A DNA stretch of 64,000 nucleotides from a virus. Taxonomy: Duplodnaviria > Caudoviricetes. The translations under genes and the position numbers were made by a program. How positions within the stretch are numbered: position 1 is the stretch's first letter; the number at the start of each line of letters is the position of its first letter. Positions 3,090 to 62,488 of this stretch are shown here, in pieces. Location of the stretch: the IMG/VR virus record IMGVR_UViG_3300021256_000079, positions 30,755 through 94,754 of that record; one strand, written 5' to 3'. The notes beneath the pieces were generated by a model. That model did no database searches and was not told the origin of the DNA. It saw nothing but the letters and a program-made list of their open reading frames with translations.

Positions 3090-3438
3090 TCTGCATCTTA
3101 TAACAGAAATGGAACTTATACCTGTAATGATCGATGCTATCATGGAACCTTTTTATGAAGGTAACTTTTTAATGTATGACAAAGAAAAAGACGAGTATAA
3201 GTATCCGGATGTCATGCCACAATTCAGATGGGACTACTATACTGTTCATCCGAAGATATTCTATCCTAAAATTGAAGACTGTTTCATCATTATTGATCCA
3301 GAAGGAAGAGCAATTGCCAGAAGATGGTGGAACGGTAAAAAATGGATCGACCAAAACAAGCATTTTGAAAGATTCATAAAGAAAAATAAGCGTAAATGGA
3401 AAGGATGCTACATGCTAGAAATAGATGTGCATTGGTGA
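3076..3438 (+). CDS. Hypothetical protein
   Basis: ORF coupled to neighbours; start approximate. Confidence 0.7.
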   Translation: MMHANLHLITEMELIPVMIDAIMEPFYEGNFLMYDKEKDEYKYPDVMPQFRWDYYTVHPKIFYPKIEDCFIIIDPEGRAIARRWWNGKKWIDQNKHFERFIKKNKRKWKGCYMLEIDVHW

Positions 3439-3446
3439 TTAATACG

Positions 3447-3758
3447 ATGAAAGCTAAAGAATATTTCGAAAAGTATGCTGAATCAGTTTGGGAAGACTAT
3501 CAGCAGGACGAATTTCGTGGCGACGGTCCAATCGCCAAAATGTTTATTGAATTTATGACGGAAACCAAAGATATTTGCGAAAAAAGAAAAGCCAAAACTG
3601 ATCGAGCGGTACTAAGTGTCGTTGATGAACAGAATAAGAAGTGGAACGCTTTGGCAAATCTGTTCATTAAGAAATACGGTCAATCTCCTATTAAGCGTGA
3701 CGGATATTTAAATGGAGCTGAAAGCGAACTTGGAGTCTCGCTGAAGAAAAGAACATAA
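3447..3758 (+). CDS. Hypothetical protein, paralog of 14529-14912
   Basis: AKEYFxxY...KKWxxLxNxF shared. Confidence 0.7.
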   Translation: MKAKEYFEKYAESVWEDYQQDEFRGDGPIAKMFIEFMTETKDICEKRKAKTDRAVLSVVDEQNKKWNALANLFIKKYGQSPIKRDGYLNGAESELGVSLKKRT

Positions 3759-3784
3759 CGCGTAAGAAACATGGTGTTTAATGG
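3758..3784 (+). promoter_or_regulatory. Promoter-like motif, copy 6
   Basis: ACGCGTAAGAAACATGGTGTTTAATGG followed by a hairpin. Confidence 0.75.
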
Positions 3785-3837
3785 GAGGACTAAGGAAACT
3801 TGGTCCTCTTATATTTTTCTCGAAAGGAGTCATACCA

Positions 3838-4653
3838 ATGAGTCTCAAGGTCAAGGGAAAAACGTTGCTTATTCTGGTGACAGGTGCTGGTATTGTAGTC
3901 ACAGCTTATCTTGCCGCTAAGAAAGCACCGGAAGCTCAAAAGAGAAAGGAGGAAGCACTTAAAGCAAAAAGAGAAGCCACTGGAGATGAGAACGCTCAGC
4001 TTACAACTACCGAGTCTATAAAGGCACAAATTGGTAGTTATGCGCCAGCAATTATTAGTGGTGTCGTAGCTTTTAGCAGTTTTATTGGAACCGAAATTAT
4101 TGACGAGCATGATATTCATAAGATTAAGCAGTCGGTAACGAACGATTTCAATAAACTTAAGAATTCACTAGATGACTACAAAACAATGACCGATAAGTTG
4201 AACGGCAATGGCTCTTCCAAGATAATTGAAAGAGCTATTGAACAAGACAATAAGACGTTTACAACAAGACAGTGGTACCGAATTGTATTTGAGGGTGAAA
4301 AACTTGAATTCCAGTCTACGCCAGAAGAGGTGATTAAAGCTTTTTATGAGGCGAATCGACAGTTTCAGGGTACAGGAATTCTGACATTTAATGAGTTTAT
4401 TGATTTTCTCGATCAGCAGCTATTGACAGATGAAGCTCAGCAAAAGGGTGAAGAACTCTGTTGGGAGGCTTTTGTATGTGACAACATCTTTGGCTACACG
4501 TGGCTAGACTTTGATATTCAGCCTTGTGAAGATAGACCCGACATGAAAGAGATCATCTTTCCTGTGATGCCTCGTTATATTGATGAGGAAGATCGATACC
4601 ATAAGATTAACGAAGCCTGTGCTAAAAAGATTACGGATGGTGATATTGAATGA
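3838..4653 (+). CDS. DUF6353-like phage protein (paralog family with 12047 and 16484)
   Basis: N-terminal hydrophobic GxxxTA helix, second hydrophobic helix, similar C-terminal domain; family name from memory. Confidence 0.65.
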   Translation: MSLKVKGKTLLILVTGAGIVVTAYLAAKKAPEAQKRKEEALKAKREATGDENAQLTTTESIKAQIGSYAPAIISGVVAFSSFIGTEIIDEHDIHKIKQSVTNDFNKLKNSLDDYKTMTDKLNGNGSSKIIERAIEQDNKTFTTRQWYRIVFEGEKLEFQSTPEEVIKAFYEANRQFQGTGILTFNEFIDFLDQQLLTDEAQQKGEELCWEAFVCDNIFGYTWLDFDIQPCEDRPDMKEIIFPVMPRYIDEEDRYHKINEACAKKITDGDIE

Positions 4654-4982
4654 CGCCTAAAACGTATGTACTCGAGGTTTCGGACGAAATCAATAGTGTT
4701 CCAAGTAGGATTAAGAGTATACAAAAACTGTTCAACGATGAGAATACGATCGTTACTCTTAACCTTATAAGAGAGGTGTTCGGATTGAGGCCGCTTAGAT
4801 CAGAGTATGAAATGTGCTTTGGTCCGAACACAGAAGAACCGCTGGATATTAGTGTATCTTACAGCTTTAATACTAGGATGCATGCTGAAAACAATTGTTA
4901 TACAATCAAGATTTCGAACGTCATCGATTTAAGATATTTTTATGAATGTTGTGAGGAGAGCGATTACTATGGAGACGATTAA
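4650..4982 (+). CDS. Hypothetical protein
   Basis: ATGA overlap with upstream gene. Confidence 0.7.
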   Translation: MTPKTYVLEVSDEINSVPSRIKSIQKLFNDENTIVTLNLIREVFGLRPLRSEYEMCFGPNTEEPLDISVSYSFNTRMHAENNCYTIKISNVIDLRYFYECCEESDYYGDD

Positions 4983-5292
4983 AATTAGTGATACAGATCT
5001 TAGGGAATATGCCAACGAAATTATGTCGAGCGATGAGTATCTCGCTCAGAGAGAAAAATACCATATGCACAACCCAAAGCACTATGTAAATGAATCGACG
5101 CATAGAGCAATCATGATGAGTTCTATTGATATTGCGAAAAAAACTATCGGCAGTAACGGTACTATTGAAGAGATCAAAAGAGCATGTGTCTATATGAGAA
5201 TCTGTATTGACGCAAGACAGTATCGACTGAACTATACGGCGGCAAAGAAAGAACTCAAAATTGATGAGCTTGTTCAGAAGTATTGTAAATAA
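4969..5292 (+). CDS. Protein resembling the post-catalytic helical segment of the phage RNAP
   Basis: EEIKRA..IDA..L..IDELVQKY aligns ungapped with RNAP EEIARA..IDA..L..IAELKTKY. Confidence 0.7.
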   Translation: METIKISDTDLREYANEIMSSDEYLAQREKYHMHNPKHYVNESTHRAIMMSSIDIAKKTIGSNGTIEEIKRACVYMRICIDARQYRLNYTAAKKELKIDELVQKYCK

Positions 5293-5295
5293 TAC

Positions 5296-5322
5296 TCGCG
5301 TAAGAAACACACGTATAGATGA
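5296..5322 (+). promoter_or_regulatory. Promoter-like motif, copy 7 (heads the unit containing the pentamer array and Cas7-like gene)
   Basis: TCGCGTAAGAAACACACGTATAGATGA followed by a hairpin. Confidence 0.75.
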
Positions 5323-5374
5323 GAGGACTAAGGAAACTTAGTCCTCTTTATTTTTATCGAAAGGATGAAAAACT

Positions 5375-5908
5375 ATGAAAAAAGCTATTGTTCGCGGAAA
5401 CTACGATGAAGCCCCTATGCTCCAGATGGGTTATGTTACTGATTACATGTGGAAATCGGTAGCATACTTTAGAGCGCCAGAAAAAAGTGGAAGATATTTG
5501 GTTATTAAAAAAGACGGAACACTCGACGAATATGAGTGCACCGGAACAAAATGCGATGACAAATCGCTGTTTGAAATGGCCGCTGAAATGAGTGATGAAT
5601 ATTGCTCAGCCGTTTTTGTCAATGAACACCCCGCAAGCGATACAGAAATTCTTGACACTTACAGAAGTCCATGGTCTAGATGGTATAAAGTCGAGGAGTG
5701 GTACGAATACGAAGACTGCCACACTGATCTGCATATGTTTACAGAAGAATCTGATCAGTATCCATTATATTTTCTTGACCTTAATCTTGATGAAAAATTC
5801 CAAATCGAAGAAAACGGTGAAATTCACACAGGTGAGGATCCCGTTTACTTTAGACTTAATACGAATCTTGAATACGAGCAAATCGACGACGAAGATAAAA
5901 ACGAGTGA
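5375..5908 (+). CDS. Acidic hypothetical protein
   Basis: ORF with RBS. Confidence 0.75.
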   Translation: MKKAIVRGNYDEAPMLQMGYVTDYMWKSVAYFRAPEKSGRYLVIKKDGTLDEYECTGTKCDDKSLFEMAAEMSDEYCSAVFVNEHPASDTEILDTYRSPWSRWYKVEEWYEYEDCHTDLHMFTEESDQYPLYFLDLNLDEKFQIEENGEIHTGEDPVYFRLNTNLEYEQIDDEDKNE

Positions 5909-5915
5909 ATAAAAT

Positions 5916-6576
5916 GTTATGGCAAAGTGTAGATCTGAGGGGCGTAGGAAGAGAAAAGCAACGTGATGGCATGGAACGGCAGGGAAAAGAATTGCAAAGC
6001 GAGGGAATAGCGCTGCACTGAATCGCGTGGGAACAGAGTAGTTACGAGTAGCAAAGGATTAGCGATGCGACGATTACCAAAGAGATGCATTGGCATAGAA
6101 CGGCACGGAAACGAATGGCAAAGGACTTGCATAGAAGAGCAAAGGAGAGGCGTGGCGACAAAATGGAGACGAAATGCAACGGAACAGGACCGCTAAGAAA
6201 TGAGGAGCGTTGGAAATGAACGGTATGGAGCAGAAAAGAACTGCATAGGAATAGAACAGCTACGAATTGAGGAGTGTTGGCATAGCTCAGAGATGCAATG
6301 GAAATGAACTGCCAAGAAACGGTACGCAGTGGTAGAGCTTAGATACGAGAAGCATTGGCAAAGAACGGATGCTCATCGAGATGCAAAGGAAAAGAATGGC
6401 CTTGAATTGAACTGCCAAGAACACAAAAGCAATGGAATTGCAATGAAACGTCCTGAAAGGGAGAAGAAAAGCAAGGATAGCCGCGAACTGTACGCATTGG
6501 CAAAGAATGGAGGCTCATCGAGATGCTAAGGAAAAGCCTTGCATTGAACTGCCAAGAACAGAAAGGCGACGGCGAT
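5916..6576 (+). ncRNA. Pentamer-periodic G[AC][AG]NN array; putative guide-RNA array for the adjacent Cas7-like protein
   Basis: Parses almost entirely into G-initiated 5-mers with a single extra G every ~3-9 units; no credible ORF. Confidence 0.75.
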
Positions 6577-6589
6577 TGCTTGAAAGGAG

Positions 6590-6874
6590 GTGATCAAAAT
6601 GATAATTGAAAGCTTTCCTGGCGATGCCAAACCGTACAAGTGTAATGACTGTGACACAATCTTTTTATGGAGGGAGGATATTGCAGATCATCCAAAAGGA
6701 AGATGTAACAGGTTTAGTACTAAGTACGAATGCTATACAAACGACGAAACATGCTTATTTTACAGCAAATGTAGTGGACCGATATGCCCAGTATGTAAAT
6801 CCAAATACGTTGTAAACGTAAACTCTTTTTACTACAGAATAACAAGATATTTCAGAAATCGAAAGGAGAAATAA
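6590..6874 (+). CDS. Zn-ribbon protein, paralog of 10489-10752
   Basis: CNDC and CPVC motifs; shared C-terminus RIxxYFR. Confidence 0.75.
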   Translation: MIKMIIESFPGDAKPYKCNDCDTIFLWREDIADHPKGRCNRFSTKYECYTNDETCLFYSKCSGPICPVCKSKYVVNVNSFYYRITRYFRNRKEK

Positions 6875-6876
6875 TT

Positions 6877-7488
6877 ATGATCACTTTGACTGTTAAGGTT
6901 ACTTTTACTGAGGAAGTCCTTGGAACTGCTTCTGCTAACAAAGATATTCATGCTGAATACATCGCTAGCAAGGCTCCTGATGCTGCTTCCATTAAGGAAG
7001 AAGTGGAAGCCGTTGGCGCTGAAGAAGTGTTTGAAAAGTCTATGACCGTTTTTCCGCGAGGAAAAGATGGCGGACCGATTGCCTGGGATTACCAGTGGAA
7101 GGGTTTTCTTAAGGACGCCTTTAAGTCCCTTAAGAAGATTCCTGGATCTGAATGCGGTAAGATTAAGGCCTATAAACAGGAGATTGATGGCCTTATATTC
7201 GTGAACCCGCGTCAGATCCCGATCGTTCTCCCTGAAGGCGGAAAGATTGGTATCTGCCAGAGACCTCTCAGAGCCAGCACTGCTCAGGGTGAAAGGATTG
7301 CTTTGGCCTCTTCTGAAACAGTTCCTGTCGGATCTACTATGACGTTTGATATTCAGCTGCTTCTTGACACACACGAAAAAGCTGTAATCGAGGCTTTCAA
7401 TTACGGAAAGCTTCGTGGTTTTGGTCAGTGGCGAAACTCCGGTGCCGGACGTTTCAACTATGAAATCCTTAACAGAAAGGTGGATTAA
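6877..7488 (+). CDS. Solitary Cas7/RAMP-like protein
   Basis: N-terminal strand with VTFTEEVLG, helix WKGFLKDA, C-terminal Gly-rich loop GFGQWRNSGAGRF typical of RAMP/Cas7 (Csm3/Csf2-like) folds. Confidence 0.75.
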   Translation: MITLTVKVTFTEEVLGTASANKDIHAEYIASKAPDAASIKEEVEAVGAEEVFEKSMTVFPRGKDGGPIAWDYQWKGFLKDAFKSLKKIPGSECGKIKAYKQEIDGLIFVNPRQIPIVLPEGGKIGICQRPLRASTAQGERIALASSETVPVGSTMTFDIQLLLDTHEKAVIEAFNYGKLRGFGQWRNSGAGRFNYEILNRKVD

Positions 7489-7490
7489 TC

Positions 7491-8285
7491 ATGAATACGA
7501 TGCTTGCTTTTATGATGGGTGATCGTTTTCGTGGTAATGAATTGATGGTTTTTGACTGGAATAAGGCTGCAAAACTTATTAAAGAAAACTATCTGGACGA
7601 AGTGGTATTTGCCGGTCTTTCTGGAGATATGGAATATACCTCTGGCTGTATATTCAGAGATGGTCATCCTGTTCTTGACGATTACACATACCTTTCATCA
7701 ACTTGGGCAACTCCGGTTCTTGCAGTTGGAGACGAAGAAATTCCATGCTATATCATGCAACATGAAACCGAGTGGGATGATAGCACTAAATGGCCACAAT
7801 CCGCTCTTGATATTCTTGGCGTAAAGAAAACCGAACCCGATCCAAGAATTTACAACGATAATTCACAAGGTCGTGCAATTCTTGAAGACGATGCTTATAA
7901 TGGGTATCATTATAGAATTGTATCTACTCGCGGCGATCATCCTTGCTGCTACATCGAAATTACAGAAGGACATCCTTGGTATCGTAAACCTTATCAGCGT
8001 CTTGAGTGGGATTGGGAATGGGACGATGAAGGAAAAGAGATAGAGAAACCTCCAATTGGAGGCAAAACTATCAACGTTCATGGCGGAATTACTTACAGCG
8101 ATAACATGGACGTTGAAGGAGAATGGTGGATCGGATGGGATTACGCTCATGGCGGAGATTATTGTCATCATTATATGAAACATTCGCCTGACGATCATGT
8201 ATGGACAATGGATGAACTTCGAAAAGAAGTGCATGATGCAATTGACCAGCTTAATGATATTTTCAAGGAGGACGACGAAAGGTGA
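7491..8285 (+). CDS. Two-domain hypothetical protein
   Basis: N-domain FDWNKAA..WATP; C-domain HPCCY..VHGGITY..WIGWDYAH. Confidence 0.75.
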   Translation: MNTMLAFMMGDRFRGNELMVFDWNKAAKLIKENYLDEVVFAGLSGDMEYTSGCIFRDGHPVLDDYTYLSSTWATPVLAVGDEEIPCYIMQHETEWDDSTKWPQSALDILGVKKTEPDPRIYNDNSQGRAILEDDAYNGYHYRIVSTRGDHPCCYIEITEGHPWYRKPYQRLEWDWEWDDEGKEIEKPPIGGKTINVHGGITYSDNMDVEGEWWIGWDYAHGGDYCHHYMKHSPDDHVWTMDELRKEVHDAIDQLNDIFKEDDER

Positions 8286-8551
8286 AGAAAAAACTCTTGG
8301 CTGGAATTGTATGCCTTGTGATGCTGTTAGTTCTTTTGACTGGTTGCAGCTCGAACACTAAGAGTACGGACGCTAGTAAGGAATGGAAGAAAATAGGTTA
8401 CATTCTGTTTCCGGACGAAACGGTTGTAATCGAATTCGGAAAGATAAGTAGAATCAGTTCTGGTTGGATTAATGTATGGACTGCTGATGGAAAAACGTGT
8501 TACTCAACAAATGAAAGAAACGTTATTCTTGTAAACGAACAAATCGACTAA
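8282..8551 (+). CDS. Putative lipoprotein
   Basis: KKK, hydrophobic stretch, then lipobox LLTGC. Confidence 0.75.
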   Translation: MKKKLLAGIVCLVMLLVLLTGCSSNTKSTDASKEWKKIGYILFPDETVVIEFGKISRISSGWINVWTADGKTCYSTNERNVILVNEQID

Positions 8552-8611
8552 TTCAAAAGAGGCTGTCTCAATCGAGGCAGCCTTTTTATTTTTTCTGGAA
8601 GGAGAAATTAA

Positions 8612-56200: not shown

Positions 56201-57704
56201 CAAGAGCGAAGACGAATACGAGGGAATTGCTGCTGAAACCATTGAAGAAGGTAAGACTGCTTCTACGACGATAGTCGATAAGGCTGTCGAAGTATTTACT
56301 AAAATTACAGAAGCACAGAGTAAACTTCAAAATGTGGGTGGAATTGCAAGTATTTGGACTGGCGAGCCGCCTTCGTTTACTGACATCGCCGCTCAGTTTG
56401 AATCACTCGGTCAAGGTCTTAAAGACTTTAGCGACAAATTAAATGGCGTTGGCGAAAGTGAAACTAAGAAGTTTGATCCAGAAGCTGCTAAGGGTGCTCT
56501 TCTTATTGTCGATAGCATGATCAGTACTATGACAGATATTGGCACAAGGCTTCCTAAGATTGGCGGTATTGGAAACTTCTTTAAGACAATTGGTGAAGGC
56601 CGTACGTCCACTTTGTCTGATGTCGGTACACAGATTGGCGGACTCGGTGACGGACTTAGCGGATTCTCTACAGCTATTAGTGGAAAATTCGGTAATGCTG
56701 ATGAGATTATTAATGCCCTCAAAGTTGTTTCAAGTGTTGTCGATATGATCGCATCTATGGCGTCAACTGGCGAGATGATTTCATATGGTAATGTTGAAAC
56801 ATACGTTGACTATATTAATACTTTCCTGACCGAAATGACGAGTCTCGAAAGAGGCGTGAGCGGTGGACCTGATAGAAGTCAAACTGTTATCCAATCTCTT
56901 GTAACGATGATGGGAGATATTTCTGCAGCTATGACAGCAGCCGATAATATCGATGATAAGAACCTTGACATCTTTGCCACATTTGTTCAGTCTTTGAATA
57001 ACTTGGCTACCATTAACATGGAAACTACACTTAAATCCTTCGAAGAAGTCGGCAATAACATTTCTCTTGGTGTGCAGCGTGGTATTAATAGTGGATCGTC
57101 TGCTGTAATCCAGGCTGCTATCGATATGGCTGTTGCTGCATATGAAGCGGCTAAGGCTGCTCTCGATGAACACAGTCCGAGTAGACTATTTATGGGAATT
57201 GGTGCCTTTGCTTCTGAAGGTATGGCTCTTGGTATTACTAAGAGTGCTGATCAAGCAGCCAATGCTAGTGAATCGATGGCAAATAGCACAATTGATTCTG
57301 CTAGAGGCGTGCTTGCAAATATTAGTAGTATTCTTGCTAGCGATGTTGATGCTCAGCCTACGATTACACCCGTTCTTGATCTGACTAATGTTACAGCTGG
57401 TGCTAGGGAAATTAGTGGAATGTTCGGTAGCACTTATGGAATCGGTATTGATCCAAGTGGTGCGAGAGCTAGAGCATCCAGAACTTATTCTGCTCCTGAA
57501 GCTGTGGCTGTTGATCAAAATGGAATCGATAGTTATGGCGCTCTTGCTAGACTTGATGCTATGCTCGAGAATATTCAGAAAATGGGCGAGAGCATTTCCA
57601 ATATGAAACTGGTACTCGACACTGGTGTCATTGCTGGCGGCGTTTCTGACGACGTCGATATCGATATTGGAAGAAAAATGTTCTACGCAGCAAGAAGAAA
57701 CTAA
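50298..57704 (+). CDS. Tape measure protein
   Basis: ~2470 aa, tape-measure N-domain, hydrophobic repeats, HSPSR motif near the C-terminus. Confidence 0.92.
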   Translation: MANNSTDTRIVQMQFDNREFERNIAQSEKSLDKFKEALDFSKCESSLEDFQDATKKLTFEQMAENIQKLTDKFTGLGNLGEFAISKVRHELESAAYKAKAFFDSMTIEQVNVGFSKFGQLNKKVQTIMAATGRAESDVYTVLERLNEYTDQTSYNFVDMAANIGKFTSVGIGLEDAEKQMEGIANWAARSGGGIQEASRAMYNLSQAMGVGALTKIDWKSIENASMATKEFKEQLIQAGLATGQLVKENGKVMTAKSLGKQVEVTYQNLAETLSKKWANTEVMQKSFMAYYYEDLYYTGEIATGVKTTKEQRDELRKLVALNEKIDLKAWENIKSESDKIRNDLLSSEEIDHSEWEKLNIDSEENRQKILDAAVEQKKILKEVNEEGYTVYKTLAKDGKQIELTTENFDEFVKRGLLDETLMTVVFGLDMDPLIESTEEQKQALKDALGSDDIILKKDWAENLKAAGLANDEFKQAAMDAAVAAGTLKKETDKAGKTIYKTAKGFGKETVVNLQNFEETLKNKWFTGAVADRAVKLNDLGKAAYESAQKCMTFTDVLDAWKDQLSTGWMNSYKKIFGELSESMELFSNVCNKVGEALGNLVEFRNKILDTWGKAGGRENLWALIVGEVTDEGEAIAYKGAYGLLDALGDIGEMISNAFFEMLKLFADPGSQLNWDEEGYKEGWMAATLNHAIVSIRAFIASIHDFFNASSEGSEKSRWEQIQDVVNAIFATFALAYVVIRDVTGFMSKLFDKDHLGKSLDYILQLLSALGVGVYDMVDSAESADGLQKLFNGLLESLEPLIAAVNELVGVIVNNLIGTLENGKESGTFAGIWETICDIFKLLGTIISKVAPPFLKFVSSMLEIINDLFNGELTGDKLKSLGARLEASITQLFDDVFGLIPGFGKDLQGAIAYIFGFAEEGAEDGADGSSKTILGVAKQWLRKIFGGFANIYDNIKGDADQFNLFTWAKQMLGLDAFGKFIGQMAGVVKGTNLYGIIMSFLGGYALFKLIGTLRQGTGLLRNLQGFFQGAQDVMKDGLKLKFGDQLESTGDKVMKIATGIALIAGSVAVLGSMDPKNLLIGFAALAGVMIALGGFLLLMKQYVLKDFKEAMGLTATIGAVAIAILSITLGIGLLVMMLKPLANMEPDGIIKMLTGLLGVVTILGLVAKYIGKDLKNLKGAGSIAAMAVSIGLLIFALKPLATMELGEMGNMALGLIGILTILALFSKYAGNMKIKGTGSLILLATSIAILVMSLMSLKDLKPEQMANLGTGLFGILTILALFAKYAGSMKGKGMGQMILVAGSIFILMQAIMPLANLKWEQLGKLGASLAGIMIILGAFINETQSMKATGMINLVVIAAAIWVLVRAIEPLAKYEWSQLAKIGVGLFVISGIVIAMTQLAGDMNILQGAGIAVMLVGFAAVLLAFGLAMSSVAGLKVDQIESTLSGFVSILITFALIQRYLLKDSDILDAVHTLILLGGLAVVMIAFSIALNEIKNVPTDKIIAFSIGLGVLVAGVGLALKLTKGLTIGGAIKSILIISAAVAALMAVFAIVGKFAIGTLASALTNLAANLKLFSGMMTDFSDRMNKVDEGSIKKAELIINMLAEMLSDLVGISIGSISSSYLTTIASHLTLTSGMLIDFSSRMNRIDLTAFTKAQTMIDQIRLMMISLTGFEDFTSRREAFTTALFDLGTGIEIFATHTGNVGDMSNNSAIQIIKDLSGCAGDLDIIAKMDLDKLTSSMTGLGGAMMLYAKGAEEATGIATETEGAPDVAGAVGLLRDISNSLTEEGGFTIPENMPSDQALGTFGAQLAALAGALVEFEAAGSKLGSGTDKALECLDFFSDLKAKLSEINMGEAIGAVLTAFITKNDVTVQPNELETFGKNIEQLGLALAAFAKSTTIVDESTGEITPVDYSVAVEALQSFSGLANSLPTIGGINAWWTGNKESLTQLAADLEALGQGLKDFSMKVTGKSEDEYEGIAAETIEEGKTASTTIVDKAVEVFTKITEAQSKLQNVGGIASIWTGEPPSFTDIAAQFESLGQGLKDFSDKLNGVGESETKKFDPEAAKGALLIVDSMISTMTDIGTRLPKIGGIGNFFKTIGEGRTSTLSDVGTQIGGLGDGLSGFSTAISGKFGNADEIINALKVVSSVVDMIASMASTGEMISYGNVETYVDYINTFLTEMTSLERGVSGGPDRSQTVIQSLVTMMGDISAAMTAADNIDDKNLDIFATFVQSLNNLATINMETTLKSFEEVGNNISLGVQRGINSGSSAVIQAAIDMAVAAYEAAKAALDEHSPSRLFMGIGAFASEGMALGITKSADQAANASESMANSTIDSARGVLANISSILASDVDAQPTITPVLDLTNVTAGAREISGMFGSTYGIGIDPSGARARASRTYSAPEAVAVDQNGIDSYGALARLDAMLENIQKMGESISNMKLVLDTGVIAGGVSDDVDIDIGRKMFYAARRN

Positions 57705-57725
57705 CTTCTCATTTCAAGTAAACCG

Positions 57726-57760
57726 GACCGGGGTATCTTCGGATATTCCCGGTCTGTTTT
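57726..57760 (+). terminator. Terminator-like hairpin after tape measure gene
   Basis: GACCGGG..TTCG..CCCGGTC followed by TGTTTT. Confidence 0.7.
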
Positions 57761-57783
57761 ACTGAGAGGAGCGACTACAAAAA

Positions 57784-60291
57784 ATGTACGATATTTACCT
57801 TAAAAACTATTATGAAAACGGATCGCTTGTAAAAACAGAAAAAAGACTCTATTCGATTCCGATTAAAGAAGAGGACATAGAGTATGTTCTTGTTGATCCG
57901 TCTGTCTCTTGCGATATTGGTAAGACTGGAAGCTTCGAATTTACGATTCATCCTAACCATCCCTATTATCACGCTTTGGCTCAGATGAGAACTATTATGC
58001 GAGTCGAATACGATGGAGACACGATATTTAGAGGCAGAATTCTAACAGTTGATAATACACTTACTGGAGCTAAAAAGATTCACTGTGAAGGCGACATGGC
58101 CTTTCTTCTTGATAGCTTTCAGATGAGTTCTAAAAAAGAAGAAAGATCATCTATTACGATCAATGTTTATATTAATAAAATTCTTAATGAGCATAATCGT
58201 CAAATGAGCGAATCTGGAGAAACAGATAAGTGCATTTATCCTGGCTACATTCCAGGTAGTTATCCAGCGAGTTTCAGCGAACAGCAAAAAGTCACTAATA
58301 AAACCGATAAATTTGGAAGCAATAGTCATGAGCAGACCATGAATGCATTAGAGTCGCTTACAAAAGAATTCGGTGGATTCTTTAGAACTCGCTATAATCC
58401 TGCTGATGGAAAAGTATATTTGGACTGGTGTAGAAACTGGTTCAATAGAAATATCGAAGGAAGTCAACCAATCGCAATCACTCAGAACATTATTGATGCT
58501 CAGAGTAATAGTGAAGTTGATAACATCTTTACCGCTTTGATCCCGGTTGGTTCAAAAGAAGGTAAAGATATTTTCATCAATGGCTATAAAACTAACATTC
58601 ACGGTGACAATAATCGTATTCTTGTTCCACAAATAGCTAGTGTTTACACAGCAGAACAACTTGATACTGGCTATGTTAATGAGTCGATATTTGAAAAAGC
58701 TGTTGAACAGTATGGAATAATCTATAAAGTTCAAAGCTTTTCTAATGCCGATACTCAAGCAAAACTGTGGAGTTACGCTTGTGACTGGATTCGCCATAAC
58801 TATGTTGGCGGAATCACGAATTATGATTTGACTGCAATCGATATGCATCATATAGATGGCACGGTTGCAAAGTATTTGGTTGGCGACTGTATTCCACTTC
58901 GTCTTCCTCCAGATCTTACCGAACTCGACGAGTATATAGATGCTAATATTCAAGAAAGAAGTGCCATCGTCCATAGAACGATTCTCGGTATAAAGTATAA
59001 CCTTCATAACCCTGAGAAAAATAGTTATTCTTGTGGCATTGTCAGTGATATTTTAAATCTTGAGTATGGTGTGGCTTCTACCTCTAAATCAAAAGGTGGA
59101 AAAGGTAAAGGCGGTGCTGGTGCAAAAGGTGGAGGCAACGGTAACAACAATAAGGAGGTCGGCGGCGACAGCAAAATGACAGAGCGAGAACTTAAAGAAC
59201 TCGCTTGGAACTATGTCATTAGCTCAGAGTACAATAACGATCTCTATGAAGACCTCAAAGCTCAAGACCCGACAGGTGAACGAGTTGCAGCTGCAGAAAA
59301 GGCATCTCATGTCAGACTCATTCGAGACATTAAGGCAACAGAAGTCTTGGAAGACGGATCAAAAGAAGAAAAAACATATGCCGCTGTATCGACGATGTTT
59401 CTCGATGCTCAGCAAGGTGTTCTTAGTTTTCTTCATCCGGTTGTGAATATTCTAGGTTTAGATGAAGCCGGAAAACGCATAACCGAAATGCGAGCTGTTA
59501 AATCTATGGAAATCGACGGATACAATCAATACCTTAGTGTAAAGAATGTTCCAAACTATCACACATATGTTGATCCATTTGTTAAACCTGTAAGTCCGTT
59601 TGTCGAAGTAGCTTCGAATGTTGCGGGACATCTTCTTGATCCGTTTGATGTACTTGGCCTTAGATCAAAAGAAAAAGGCGCAAAGATGTCTTTTATGGGC
59701 GGAACCGCCGATAATAACAAAGTTACTGCGTCTACTGATGGCGAAAATGGCTGGATGGGTGAAATCGTGAACATTATTGGTTCCGATGGTAGTGGAACCC
59801 TTGACGTTGCCACAATAATTCAAAATGGAATAGGTAACGATGGTAAAGGGTCGGAAGCTATTGGAAAAACGCCATCCGGTGAATGGCTTATTCATTTGAA
59901 TGAACCACTTAAGTATAAAGATGGTGATGGTGTTATACATACAATTCCAGATGGTGTTGTTGACGCAACCGATTACGCTGCGTTGAATTCTGGTCTTCAG
60001 AAAATCCCAAGTTTTGTAACTCAGATTGGTGTGTTTAAGACTCTGATTGCCGATAATGCTACAGCTATTAATCTTAAAGCTGACAAAGCTGATCTCAATA
60101 CTCTTAGTGCCAAAGTTGCTCATATCGAGAGTTTGACGTCTACTTACATCACAAGTAAACGTCTTGAAACTATGGAAGTAAAGGTTAAGAGTTTAACTAT
60201 AGATAACAAATTCATGATAGGAAGTAGAGTTGTTAGGCCTCAGTTATTTAGCACGCTGGGAACGGCAGCTACAGTTTTAGTTTTGGTTTAA
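57784..60291 (+). CDS. Tail tip protein (Tal/endopeptidase-like minor tail)
   Basis: GSFEF..HP.Y; IFRGR; TALIPVG. Confidence 0.8.
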   Translation: MYDIYLKNYYENGSLVKTEKRLYSIPIKEEDIEYVLVDPSVSCDIGKTGSFEFTIHPNHPYYHALAQMRTIMRVEYDGDTIFRGRILTVDNTLTGAKKIHCEGDMAFLLDSFQMSSKKEERSSITINVYINKILNEHNRQMSESGETDKCIYPGYIPGSYPASFSEQQKVTNKTDKFGSNSHEQTMNALESLTKEFGGFFRTRYNPADGKVYLDWCRNWFNRNIEGSQPIAITQNIIDAQSNSEVDNIFTALIPVGSKEGKDIFINGYKTNIHGDNNRILVPQIASVYTAEQLDTGYVNESIFEKAVEQYGIIYKVQSFSNADTQAKLWSYACDWIRHNYVGGITNYDLTAIDMHHIDGTVAKYLVGDCIPLRLPPDLTELDEYIDANIQERSAIVHRTILGIKYNLHNPEKNSYSCGIVSDILNLEYGVASTSKSKGGKGKGGAGAKGGGNGNNNKEVGGDSKMTERELKELAWNYVISSEYNNDLYEDLKAQDPTGERVAAAEKASHVRLIRDIKATEVLEDGSKEEKTYAAVSTMFLDAQQGVLSFLHPVVNILGLDEAGKRITEMRAVKSMEIDGYNQYLSVKNVPNYHTYVDPFVKPVSPFVEVASNVAGHLLDPFDVLGLRSKEKGAKMSFMGGTADNNKVTASTDGENGWMGEIVNIIGSDGSGTLDVATIIQNGIGNDGKGSEAIGKTPSGEWLIHLNEPLKYKDGDGVIHTIPDGVVDATDYAALNSGLQKIPSFVTQIGVFKTLIADNATAINLKADKADLNTLSAKVAHIESLTSTYITSKRLETMEVKVKSLTIDNKFMIGSRVVRPQLFSTLGTAATVLVLV

Positions 60292-60318
60292 CACAATACT
60301 GAAAGGACCAATGCAATT

Positions 60319-60531
60319 ATGACCATTGAAGATATTATTAAACAGATCACAGAAAAACTTATCACCCTTCCAGATCAGACTGGTTTAGCTAAGTGTGCTG
60401 GTTTCTATATGCTTTATCAGGGAATCAAAACACTAGAAGAAGCTCTAAAAGAAGAGCGTGAAAAGAACGAAACCGAAAAGAATGCTCTTCGTGAAAGAAT
60501 TAAAGAACTCGAATCTAAAGTAAAGGAGTAA
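60319..60531 (+). CDS. Small coiled-coil protein
   Basis: ORF with RBS. Confidence 0.65.
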   Translation: MTIEDIIKQITEKLITLPDQTGLAKCAGFYMLYQGIKTLEEALKEEREKNETEKNALRERIKELESKVKE

Positions 60532-60537
60532 TGAATT

Positions 60538-60882
60538 ATGGATGATCAAACTATTAATACTCAAGGTGAAATCCCTGTAGTTGAAAACGATTGGGCCTAT
60601 CCTAAGGTTTATGAAAAATCTATCATTCTTGCCGACGATACCATTCTCAAAGGCTACATTCAGCGCTCCTCTATTTCAGATGAGATCTGGGTGTTCCCTT
60701 CTGATCATTCTCTTAGCTATATGGACTTGATTCTCATCTTCACAAACGCAGAAAAGACAAGTACTCTTACCTGCTATGAATCAGAAACCGAACAGAAGAA
60801 ATATGTTGGCTACACTCGTGTGGCTAGTATTAATTCTGATACAAACGACGAAATCACAATTTGTCTCACAAAACCTGTCTAA
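60538..60882 (+). CDS. Hypothetical protein
   Basis: ORF with RBS. Confidence 0.65.
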   Translation: MDDQTINTQGEIPVVENDWAYPKVYEKSIILADDTILKGYIQRSSISDEIWVFPSDHSLSYMDLILIFTNAEKTSTLTCYESETEQKKYVGYTRVASINSDTNDEITICLTKPV

Positions 60883-60897
60883 TAGGAGGATAAAACA

Positions 60898-61125
60898 ATG
60901 TTTAAGATTCTTAAATACGGCGCCGAAGGTAAAGAAGTTGTGGAAGCTCAGGTTATGCTTCAGAGAGCCGGATCTAAAGTCAAGGCTACAGGAAAGTATA
61001 CCATTGGCATGATTGCTGCAGTTCGCGCATTCCAGAAGAAAAACGGTCTTGAAGTAACTGGTCGTCTTGATTCTAAAACTATGCGCAAACTCAGACCATA
61101 TGGAAGAAAGACCACTAAGAAATAA
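60898..61125 (+). CDS. Stand-alone peptidoglycan-binding domain protein
   Basis: LKYG..G..V...Q.ML..AVRAFQKKNGL..TG..D..T. Confidence 0.85.
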   Translation: MFKILKYGAEGKEVVEAQVMLQRAGSKVKATGKYTIGMIAAVRAFQKKNGLEVTGRLDSKTMRKLRPYGRKTTKK

Positions 61126-61147
61126 TTCAAAATGGGAGGGATAATAG

Positions 61148-61705
61148 ATGCTAGGTGAAGCGTCATATGAAGGTGCCCATAGCATAACCTTTAGTACAGG
61201 AGAAAAAGAGACTGAAGGACCTAAGGCTGGATATTTAAAAGGTCTCAATACATGGGACACCTGGCATCTAATTCCAACCAGTAAACCTATTGTCACAGGT
61301 CCTCAGCCAAGAACCAATTATATTGAAATTCCCGGTCGAGATGGTGCTATCGATTTTAGTACTTATCTTACTGGGAATATTTCATATGGTCCTAGAAGCG
61401 GCAGCTGGGAGTTTGCGATTGATAACGGATGGGAAGGCTGGGAAGCAATAAGGCAAAAGCTTTACCAGGATCTTCACGGAAAAGAATACTGGATTGTTCT
61501 TGAAGATAATCCAACTTGGTATTGGGTTGGACGAGTTAGCATTGGCGACTATAAAGCTGAGTCTAATTACAACTCGGTTACGATTAGCTATGTGGTTGAA
61601 CCTAGATGCTACTCGATATTTTCTGGAGAAGACAGCTGGCTTTGGGATCCGTTTAACTTTGAAACTGACTATACAGACGGCACTGGCCGAGAACCTAGAC
61701 TATAA
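61148..61705 (+). CDS. Distal tail (Dit)-like protein
   Basis: EIPGRDGAID..L.G; LHGK; YWVGR. Confidence 0.75.
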   Translation: MLGEASYEGAHSITFSTGEKETEGPKAGYLKGLNTWDTWHLIPTSKPIVTGPQPRTNYIEIPGRDGAIDFSTYLTGNISYGPRSGSWEFAIDNGWEGWEAIRQKLYQDLHGKEYWIVLEDNPTWYWVGRVSIGDYKAESNYNSVTISYVVEPRCYSIFSGEDSWLWDPFNFETDYTDGTGREPRL

Positions 61706-61717
61706 AGAGGTGACACG

Positions 61718-62488
61718 ATGCCTTACACACTTAAACCAAATAAATTGTTTGCTAAAGACCCAAATGGCGACGGATATTTGCCACAGAATGTGATCACTGA
61801 TAAGTCTACAAGTGATGCCGTTGCTGAAATAGAAGAGACTGGCACGACTCAGAATAATAGATTGACTACGACTGGTAATGCACAGGAAGATAGAGTCAAT
61901 GCTGCCGGTAGAACTCAAGTTAATGCCATTACTGCAAAAGCGACAGAACTCGAAACGCTGATGGATGACGCAGATGCAGCCATTGCTAAGATTGATGCTC
62001 TGGACGATATTATTAGTGGACTTAGAAGTCTTCTGGATCTTGTGCATCCTGTTGGCAGCATTTACATCTCAAAAGATCCAACAGATCCTGGTGATATGTT
62101 CGGTGGTGTATGGAGTCCAATAACGGATCGTTTTCTTCTTACAGCTGGTAGCACATATCATGTTGGGGATGCTGATGGCGGTGAGGCAACTCATACTCTG
62201 ACGGCATCGGAGCTTCCTACACATACACACTACGCAAAAGGAAACAACAGTACAGAAAACGACAATTGGACAATTCCAGCAGTTAGAAATATATCTGGGT
62301 CATCCGGTATTTTGACCGTTTCGCAAGGTATGGACAGGGTTGTTCCTGCTTCAAAATTTGAAAGCGACGCCTCTTGGGGAAATTTTTATCTTAGCTCGGA
62401 AACGGGCGGAATCACTGGAACGGCCGGAACTGCTCACAACAATATGCCGCCATACACAATTGTGTATGCTTGGGAAAGAGTTCAGTAA
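61718..62488 (+). CDS. Baseplate/tail fibre-associated protein
   Basis: HPVGSIY..FGG.W..GGEATH.LT..ELP..HNNMPP. Confidence 0.75.
   Translation: MPYTLKPNKLFAKDPNGDGYLPQNVITDKSTSDAVAEIEETGTTQNNRLTTTGNAQEDRVNAAGRTQVNAITAKATELETLMDDADAAIAKIDALDDIISGLRSLLDLVHPVGSIYISKDPTDPGDMFGGVWSPITDRFLLTAGSTYHVGDADGGEATHTLTASELPTHTHYAKGNNSTENDNWTIPAVRNISGSSGILTVSQGMDRVVPASKFESDASWGNFYLSSETGGITGTAGTAHNNMPPYTIVYAWERVQ

What the first reader, a model, noticed from the sequence alone, without database searches (positions are those of the whole stretch)
5916..6576. Second-level punctuation in the array: an extra G after a GC/GT-type pentamer defines ~20 segments
The 5-nt phase shifts by +1 at single Gs (5921, 5947, 5968, 6004, 6030, 6056, 6092 ...), almost always after a GCNNN or GTNNN unit (GCAAAG, GCATTG, GCAATG, GCAGTG, GCGTTG). 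This gives segments of mostly 4-7 pentamers (~21-36 nt), i.e. guide-sized. The six-nt unit may mark processing sites or ends of individual filaments.
Basis: partly seen in the sequence, partly recalled or inferred. Interest (0 to 1): 0.75.

Follow-up and report, generated by a model that had tools for sequence, protein, structure and literature searches.

The report
Register-shift punctuation in a VIPR array
The extra G's are real and conserved: they split a phage's five-base-repeat guide-RNA array (a VIPR system, a CRISPR relative first described in 2026) into about 20 short units, matching the 'staggered array' layout that the first VIPR preprint shows only in a supplementary figure.

Summary
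Observation confirmed. Window 5916-6576 is about 130 GNNNN pentamers, 94% starting with G. Their phase jumps by +1 about 20 times. At 18 of 19 jumps the six-base unit starts GG (background G 0.15; p 2e-14), and 15 of 19 follow a GC pentamer (p 2e-4). Segments hold 4-9 pentamers (mean 6.4, CV 0.32; random placement gives 0.85).

The same grammar appears in every relative examined: 23 IMG/VR loci, rumen MAG prophages and human-gut phages, down to 40% protein identity. In all of them the array lies on the gene's strand next to a 203-aa gene. That protein is a Cas7/Csm3-like RAMP (AlphaFold pLDDT 91.5; Foldseek E 4e-8) and aligns end to end with the Vipr protein of phage SUSP1 (hhalign E 4.7e-5).

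The locus is therefore a VIPR system (bioRxiv 10.64898/2026.04.26.720920) with single-G pentamers, no 3' tails and a 'staggered' array (that preprint's fig. S18, which it did not confirm by RNA sequencing).

My best reading (0.6) is that each GG junction, set in a conserved motif G-S-A-A-W-G|G-M-A-N-H-G, ends one Vipr filament or guide and starts the next. Processing and targets remain unproven; my target searches found nothing. This scan has logged VIPR-type arrays before on other DNA (67 notes, at least 60 genomes). It is a new member of a known kind.

The parts
5916..6576 (+). vrRNA-type array of about 130 GNNNN pentamers in about 20 segments, without 3' tails
   Evidence: Periodicity. Parse. 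There is no ORF of 60 aa or more on the + strand before 6329. Base composition is A 38%, G 31%. No RNA fold beyond shuffles (z -0.46). No Rfam match. It is the only such array in the 94.7-kb genome.
6352..6363 (+). Example of a +1 junction (GCATT-G|G-CAAA-G): the last unit of one segment, the extra G, and the first unit of the next
   Evidence: Junction position-weight matrix from 18 window junctions and 300 junctions in relatives: G-S-A-A-W-G|G-M-A-N-H-G. The first G of each junction lies at 5921, 5947, 5983, 6004, 6030, 6056, 6092, 6123, 6181, 6212, 6248, 6279, 6300, 6331, 6357, 6388, 6434, 6460, 6499 and 6530.
6159..6180 (+). Irregular stretch with a 7-nt unit (CAAAATG) where the phase G is lost
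6471..6493 (+). Irregular stretch with two 4-nt units (GCAA, GTAC), the only -1 slips inside the array
6494..6551 (+). Copy of 6352-6409 (86% identical). The two copies differ by a 5-nt indel, so the array grows by blocks that keep the 5-nt register
   Evidence: sequence.
6877..7488 (+). vipr-type gene: a 203-aa stand-alone Cas7/Csm3-like RAMP
   Evidence: AlphaFold2 pLDDT 91.5, pTM 0.85. Foldseek hits type VII Cas7 (8z4j) and Csm3 (6xn3) at E 4e-8 to 7e-8, TM 0.55-0.62. HMM search against PDB hits type VII Cas7 at 3.5e-5. hhalign to SUSP1 Vipr gives E 4.7e-5 over the full length. No Pfam, PHROG or NCBIfam family. 1669 clusters at 50% identity.
6599..6874 (+). 91-aa ORF with CxxC pairs, between the array and vipr. 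Role unknown and not conserved in relatives
7491..8285 (+). 264-aa ORF abutting vipr (phrog_2164, unknown function). It is a possible accessory gene but is absent from the 23 related loci
5321..5348 (+). Terminator-like hairpin upstream. Together with 8556-8587 it brackets a likely transcription unit holding the array and vipr
8556..8587 (+). Terminator-like hairpin downstream of the unit

Best explanation
The locus is a VIPR system. The array is transcribed on the gene's strand as an unstructured, purine-rich RNA (inferred). Copies of the 203-aa RAMP (Vipr) line up on it, one per pentamer, holding the fixed G and partly the next base, and presenting the variable bases to a DNA target (inferred from the SUSP1 structures).

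The extra G is a register shift. The last anchor G of one run is followed at once by the first anchor G of the next, so a filament built in one register cannot run on into the next one. One transcript therefore encodes about 20 separate short guides of 4-9 pentamers (5k+1 nt, about one helical turn of six protomers) with no tails, ribozymes or CRISPR-type repeats between them. The units may be cut apart at the junction or simply carry separate filaments.

Shown here: the pattern, its conservation, the junction motif, and the protein's fold and kinship. Inferred: transcription, one protomer per pentamer, and filament or guide ends at GG.
For: 1. The protein is a Vipr-like RAMP.
2. A same-strand pentamer array adjoins the gene in all 23 IMG/VR loci, upstream or downstream. 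No other neighbouring gene is shared.
3. All 24 arrays peak at 5.09-5.21 nt and show nothing at 5.00.
4. In relatives 300 of 368 six-nt units start GG (p 2e-151). In rumen MAG and human-gut relatives the count is 83 of 86.
5. Inside arrays the slips are almost always +1. Segment size has mode 5-6 and CV 0.2-0.46, against about 0.9 for random placement.
6. The junction motif G-S-A-A-W-G|G-M-A-N-H-G recurs in six clades whose arrays cannot be aligned with one another, and G is 0% at +5 in every clade.
7. Between L014 and L015 the substitution rate by pentamer position is 6, 11, 16, 15 and 14%. The last unit before a junction changes at 9.6% against 16% for inner units.
8. SUSP1's G1 contacts H17 and D177 align with T17 and Q184 here, while W178 and R179 align with the conserved W185 and R186 (residue roles from bioRxiv 10.64898/2026.04.26.720927). 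This fits a single fixed G.
9. The preprint lists NNNNG and YNNNG repeats and staggered arrays (10.64898/2026.04.26.720920, Methods and fig. S18 legend).
Against: - There are no RNA ends, footprints or expression data.
- No target was found under eight reading rules in 0.76 Mb of related phages, nor in two exact IMG/VR scans. Guide function is therefore unproven for this clade.
- Six pentamers give only about 12-18 specified bases, fewer than the characterised vrRNAs of 9-16 repeats.
- Breakpoints between the L014 and L015 arrays lie only slightly nearer to junctions than chance would put them (median 7.5 against 10 nt).
- The hhalign probability to SUSP1 Vipr is a moderate 68%.
- I could not see fig. 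S18 itself, only its legend.
Confidence: 0.6

Rival explanations
1. A single continuous Vipr filament covers the whole array, and the extra G is a once-per-turn spacer that relieves strain or marks the helical turn. It is not a boundary between guides.
For: Mean segment size is 6.2-6.5 units. This equals the six-subunit helical periodicity reported for the binary SUSP1 filament (bioRxiv 10.64898/2026.04.26.720927). The arrays give one sharp long-range peak at about 5.16 nt, even over 2 kb.
Against: SUSP1 vrRNAs run 16 units with no slip, and the paper reports natural vrRNAs of up to 30 repeats, so long filaments do not need a spacer. Successive segment lengths do not compensate for one another: lag-1 correlation is -0.13 against -0.08 in permutations (p 0.12), and the cumulative drift is no smaller than in permutations. 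Segments range from 4 to 9 units rather than holding at 6.
Confidence: 0.15
2. The punctuation has no function of its own. Arrays grow by copying 26-36-nt blocks, and each block happens to carry one ancestral six-nt unit.
For: Block duplications are visible: 6352-6409 against 6494-6551, a 165-nt repeat in L008 that is absent from L020, and rearranged blocks between L014 and L015.
Against: - GG junctions and the flanking motif persist in arrays that share no alignable sequence, with proteins down to 40% identity.
- G is never found at +5.
- Slips are +1, almost never -1.
- The last unit before a junction evolves more slowly.
- Indels come in multiples of 5.
Confidence: 0.1
3. This is a DNA-level signal. 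A G every 5.17 bp is half a B-DNA turn (10.3 bp), which would phase a DNA-binding protein or bend the DNA.
For: The period is 5.09-5.21 in all arrays.
Against: The signal is strictly on the gene's strand. The conserved partner is an RNA-binding RAMP, and SUSP1 arrays of the same family have an exact 5.0 period. There is no long-range phase locking.
Confidence: 0.04
4. The RNA is a sponge whose GGA motifs soak up a CsrA-type or other host RNA-binding protein.
For: In the window most junctions read GGA (78% A at +2), spaced about 31 nt apart.
Against: In relatives the base after GG is mostly C (74% in L014, 58% in the L007 group), so GGA is not conserved. The motifs do not sit in hairpin loops, since no fold is detected.
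Confidence: 0.02

Closest known systems
VIPR 'staggered vrRNA arrays' (bioRxiv 10.64898/2026.04.26.720920, fig. S18 legend; alternative NNNNG/YNNNG repeats in its Methods)
   Same: A lone viral RAMP gene sits beside a tail-less run of pentamer repeats. Successive units are offset by one base, and the end of one is the start of the next.
   Different: That preprint gives only a diagram and did not confirm this architecture by RNA sequencing. Added here: the junction motif, the rule that G is never at +5, the 4-9-unit size distribution, the per-position substitution rates, and the spread across rumen and gut phages. I saw only the legend, so identity with fig. S18 is inferred.
Type II VIPR of Escherichia phage SUSP1 (Vipr + vap1 + vrRNAs; same preprint and 10.64898/2026.04.26.720927)
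   Same: A homologous small RAMP (hhalign E 4.7e-5), a 5-nt repeat RNA on the gene's strand, and a phage setting.
   Different: SUSP1 has separate vrRNAs of about 100 nt. Each has 9-16 GGY/NN units in one unbroken register plus a structured 3' tail. Here there is one fixed G per unit, no tail, about 130 units in one run, a +1 shift every 6 units or so, and no conserved vap gene.
Class 1 CRISPR Cas7 backbones (Csm3, type VII Cas7) on crRNA
   Same: The same fold and G-rich loop. The protein polymerises along a guide RNA, and a thumb displaces bases at a fixed period.
   Different: The period there is 6 nt and has no base specificity. Guides are set apart by CRISPR repeats and cut by Cas6 or a host RNase, and other cas genes are present. 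None of the neighbouring genes tested here matches a Cas family.
Hammerhead-interspersed vrRNA arrays (same preprint, fig. S19)
   Same: Many guides are encoded on one transcript and need a way to be separated.
   Different: Those arrays use ribozymes between the units. Here no structured element or Rfam family lies between units; the only separator is one extra G.

Membership tests
VIPR system | Small stand-alone RAMP (RRM core, G-loop, thumb) outside a CRISPR-Cas locus | tested here: met
   AlphaFold2 pLDDT 91.5, with a long beta-hairpin at 125-149. Foldseek hits Cas7/Csm3 at E 4e-8. The G-loop GFGQWRNSGAGRF aligns to Cas7 and Csm4 loops. No neighbouring gene matches a Cas family.
VIPR system | Homology to a characterised Vipr protein | tested here: met
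   hhalign of the 70-sequence profile against the 195-aa SUSP1 protein beside its YNNGG runs gives probability 68%, E 4.7e-5, covering residues 1-192. The support is moderate. A direct HMM search of the SUSP1 genome found nothing.
VIPR system | Tandem pentanucleotide repeats next to the gene on its strand, with fixed and variable positions | tested here: met
   G is fixed (94%), position 2 is semi-fixed, and positions 3-5 are variable.
VIPR system | Canonical GGY/NN repeat unit | tested here: not met
   There is one fixed G per unit, and GG occurs only at junctions. The preprint accepts NNNNG and YNNNG as alternative units, so this does not exclude membership.
VIPR system | Structured 3' tail after each repeat tract (type II) | tested here: not met
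   No fold beyond shuffles. The array runs straight into the next gene's ribosome-binding site. This argues against type II but not against VIPR.
VIPR system | Accessory vap gene beside vipr | tested here: inconclusive
   The 91-aa and 264-aa neighbours have no known family, and no neighbour is shared with the 23 related loci.
VIPR system | vrRNA is expressed, co-purifies with Vipr, and recognises DNA by a gapped code | not testable with these tools
   No expression data. Target searches were negative but had low power.
Staggered vrRNA array | Adjacent repeat tracts abut with a 1-nt offset and no spacer element | tested here: met
   About 20 +1 junctions in the window, 18 of 19 as GG. The same holds in all relatives.
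Staggered vrRNA array | Junctions are the ends of individual processed vrRNAs | not testable with these tools
   This needs RNA end mapping.
CRISPR-Cas class 1 effector | CRISPR repeat-spacer array, several cas genes, 6-nt binding period | tested here: not met
   The period is 5.2 nt, not 6. There are no repeat-spacer units and no Cas families among the neighbours tested.
CsrB-type protein sponge RNA | Conserved GGA motifs, many in hairpin loops | tested here: not met
   The base after GG is C in most clades, and no structure is detected.

The most novel reading that the evidence does not exclude
Guide boundaries in this clade are written purely as a one-base change of register. The GG junction stops one Vipr filament and seeds the next without any nuclease site, tail, ribozyme or repeat. 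A single transcript would then carry about 20 one-turn mini-filaments (about six protomers each), which may act together on neighbouring DNA sites. That would be a new way to punctuate a multi-guide RNA.
Probability: 0.3. Interest if true: 0.7.

Novelty: new member of a known kind. Interest (0 to 1): 0.4.

Why it matters
VIPR systems are months old in the literature. Only the type II form, with separate tailed guides, has been studied at the bench.

This clade is large: 1669 protein clusters at 50% identity, mostly from rumen and gut phages of Clostridia. It packs up to several kilobases of guide units into continuous arrays. How those units are told apart decides how many guides a phage carries, how long each one is, and how to read their targets.

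The grammar measured here covers the junction motif, the 5k+1 unit length and which positions vary. It gives a caller for such arrays and a concrete bench test, namely removing the extra G. It does not open a new category.

Tried and rejected
- **RNA structure and known RNA families:** none found.
- **DNA similarity to known phages:** none.
- **Coding reading:** triplets from positions 2-4 or 3-5, concatenated, are at most weakly depleted of stop codons and never free of them. The array is therefore not a disguised ORF.
- **Self-targets:** none in the 94.7-kb genome.
- **Target search, first round:** 202 guides were called and a random 120 of them searched, under 13 rules, against the loci then in hand. 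The few perfect hits came only under the 5-nt-period rules, were not traced, and most likely fall in arrays of relatives that I had not yet masked.
- **Target search, second round:** 15 whole related phage genomes plus six other related loci (0.76 Mb) were fetched and the arrays masked. 240 guides under 8 rules, and 231 twelve-unit windows spanning junctions under 10 rules, all scored the same as the reversed-guide null.
- **Exact IMG/VR scans:** one 7-unit segment under the NNN 0-skip and 1-skip rules gave 0 hits.
- **Helical phase-lock idea:** rejected.
- **CsrA sponge idea:** rejected.
The single protein was used instead.

Full report
**What is there**

Window 5916-6576 lies between a 177-aa ORF (5375-5908) and a 91-aa ORF (6599-6874), inside a run of + strand genes. 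Terminator-like hairpins at 5321-5348 and 8556-8587 bracket that run. The stretch is purine-rich (A 38%, G 31%). It has no long + strand ORF, no Rfam match, and no RNA fold better than shuffled sequence (z -0.46). The window is part of a 94.7-kb IMG/VR virus record, and this is the only such array in that genome.

**Checking the observation**

- The G autocorrelation peaks at lags 5 and 10, then at 16, 21, 26, 31 and 36. Lag 25 is near zero and lag 26 is 0.40.
- A parse that rewards only a G at the start of each unit gives 113 pentamers (94% start with G), 19-21 six-nt units and a few irregular units.
- 18 of 19 six-nt units begin GG, against an off-phase G frequency of 0.148 (p 1.9e-14).
- 15 of 19 follow a GC pentamer, against a background of 0.37 (p 2.4e-4).
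- Segments hold 4-9 units, with one of 12. The mean is 6.4 and the CV 0.32. Random placement of the slips gives 0.85 and never fell that low in 20,000 trials.
The exception is 5968 against 5983, where both phases carry G and the slip cannot be placed.

**The partner gene**

- The 203-aa ORF at 6877-7488 has no Pfam, PHROG or NCBIfam family. It nonetheless has more than 5,700 relatives at 90% clustering and 1,669 clusters at 50%.
- A 70-sequence alignment folds with pLDDT 91.5.
- Foldseek places the model with type VII Cas7 and Csm3 (E 4e-8 to 7e-8, TM 0.55-0.62).
- A profile search of PDB sequences hits type VII Cas7 at 3.5e-5 through the G-rich loop.

It is a stand-alone Cas7-like RAMP.

**Conservation of the pair**

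All 23 related IMG/VR loci carry a G-period-5 array on the gene's strand, directly upstream or downstream of the homologue. L014 and L015 carry kilobases of array on both sides. No other neighbouring gene is shared. Six hits in rumen MAGs (Clostridia, Ruminococcaceae, Atopobiaceae) point to the hosts. Of the five scanned, four show an array beside the gene, as do both human-gut phage loci scanned.

Every array has a sharp spectral peak at 5.09-5.21 nt and nothing at 5.00. Inside arrays the slips are almost all +1. In relatives 300 of 368 six-nt units start GG, and in the MAG and gut loci 83 of 86 do. Segment size has mode 5-6.

**The junction as a motif**

Aligning junctions in six clades gives G-S-A-A-W-G|G-M-A-N-H-G. 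G is 0% at +5 in every clade, and the four flanking phase G's are near 100%. These arrays cannot be aligned between clades. Even L021 and L023, whose genes are 87% identical, share no alignable array.

Where alignment is possible (L014 against L015), the substitution rates by pentamer position are 6, 11, 16, 15 and 14%. The last unit before a junction changes at 9.6%, against 16% for inner units. Successive segment lengths do not compensate for one another. The sharp 5.16-nt peak therefore comes from the narrow size distribution, not from locking to a global helix.

**What is known**

A literature search found the VIPR preprint (bioRxiv 10.64898/2026.04.26.720920). It reports the following:
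- Small phage RAMPs (Vipr) pair with vrRNAs of 9-16 YNNGG pentamers and a 3' tail.
- The NN bases read double-stranded DNA with one base skipped.
- There are seven types, with alternative NNNGG, YNNNG and NNNNG repeats.
[quoted passage not shown] The text says that only the other two architectures were confirmed by RNA sequencing.

The structural companion (10.64898/2026.04.26.720927) shows one protomer per repeat and a right-handed filament with six subunits per turn (five when bound to DNA). In it, G1 is held by H17 and D177, G2 by R138 and W178, and Y3 by R179. Two later preprints do not treat the junctions.

**Tying this locus to VIPR**

I located the SUSP1 locus from its YNNGG runs at 27.5-29.5 kb of KT454805.2. 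The family profile aligns end to end with the 195-aa SUSP1 protein (hhalign E 4.7e-5, probability 68%) and does not align with its 146-aa neighbour.

In that alignment SUSP1 H17 and D177 pair with T17 and Q184 here, while W178 and R179 pair with the near-invariant W185 and R186. This fits a unit with one fixed G: our position 1 is G2, position 2 is Y3, positions 3-4 are the NN, and position 5 is the former G1 slot. At a junction the old-phase G falls in that G1 slot, giving a GG(M) triplet. SUSP1's own tracts run 16 units with no slip.

**Mechanism**

I commit to this reading at 0.6: each junction ends one filament or guide and starts the next, so the array encodes about 20 short units of 5k+1 nt, each roughly one helical turn.

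The main rival is a single continuous filament with a once-per-turn spacer. The match between 6.2-6.5 units and six subunits per turn favours it. The slip-free long vrRNAs of type II, the 4-9 unit spread and the lack of compensation between segments argue against it. Neutral block duplication, DNA helical phasing and a GGA sponge are each contradicted by specific results.

**What is missing**

I found no targets in 0.76 Mb of related phages under any rule tried, nor in two exact IMG/VR scans. These searches had low power.

**Standing**

This scan has already logged VIPR-type arrays on other DNA: 67 notes in at least 60 genomes, some naming single-G pentamers and staggered arrays. The finding is a real, well-conserved feature of a published kind of system, and the measured junction grammar is the part that adds to what is in print.

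Noticed in passing
L014 and its whole record G006 (56251-62200 and 71226-72525): This 73-kb phage carries five arrays totalling about 4.5 kb. Two of them lie about 13 kb from the vipr gene, so guide arrays can sit far from the protein gene.
   Followed up: partly
P0121 (458 aa) and P0129 (432 aa): Two representatives match the 203-aa protein in two stretches each. They look like tandem-fused double RAMPs.
   Followed up: no
window 6877-7488, residues T17 and Q184: The two residues that read the first G of GGY in SUSP1 Vipr (H17, D177) are replaced in this family, while the W-R pair that reads the second G and the pyrimidine is kept. This may explain the single-G repeat unit.
   Followed up: partly
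window 6352-6409 and 6494-6551: An 86%-identical internal duplication spans two junctions. The copies differ by a 5-nt indel, so changes keep the pentamer register.
   Followed up: partly
window 8282-8551: The N-terminus of this 89-aa ORF weakly matches lipoprotein and secreted-peptide signal models (E about 3e-3). It may be a small membrane or exclusion protein at the end of the operon.
   Followed up: no
window 4942-5292: This 116-aa ORF gives a weak PHROG match to part of an RNA polymerase family (phrog_4291, E 9e-4).
   Followed up: no
L008 against L020 (array 3400-4060): Phages that are otherwise 97-99% identical differ by a block of about 165-200 nt inside the array, which shows fast gain or loss of guide units.
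   Followed up: partly
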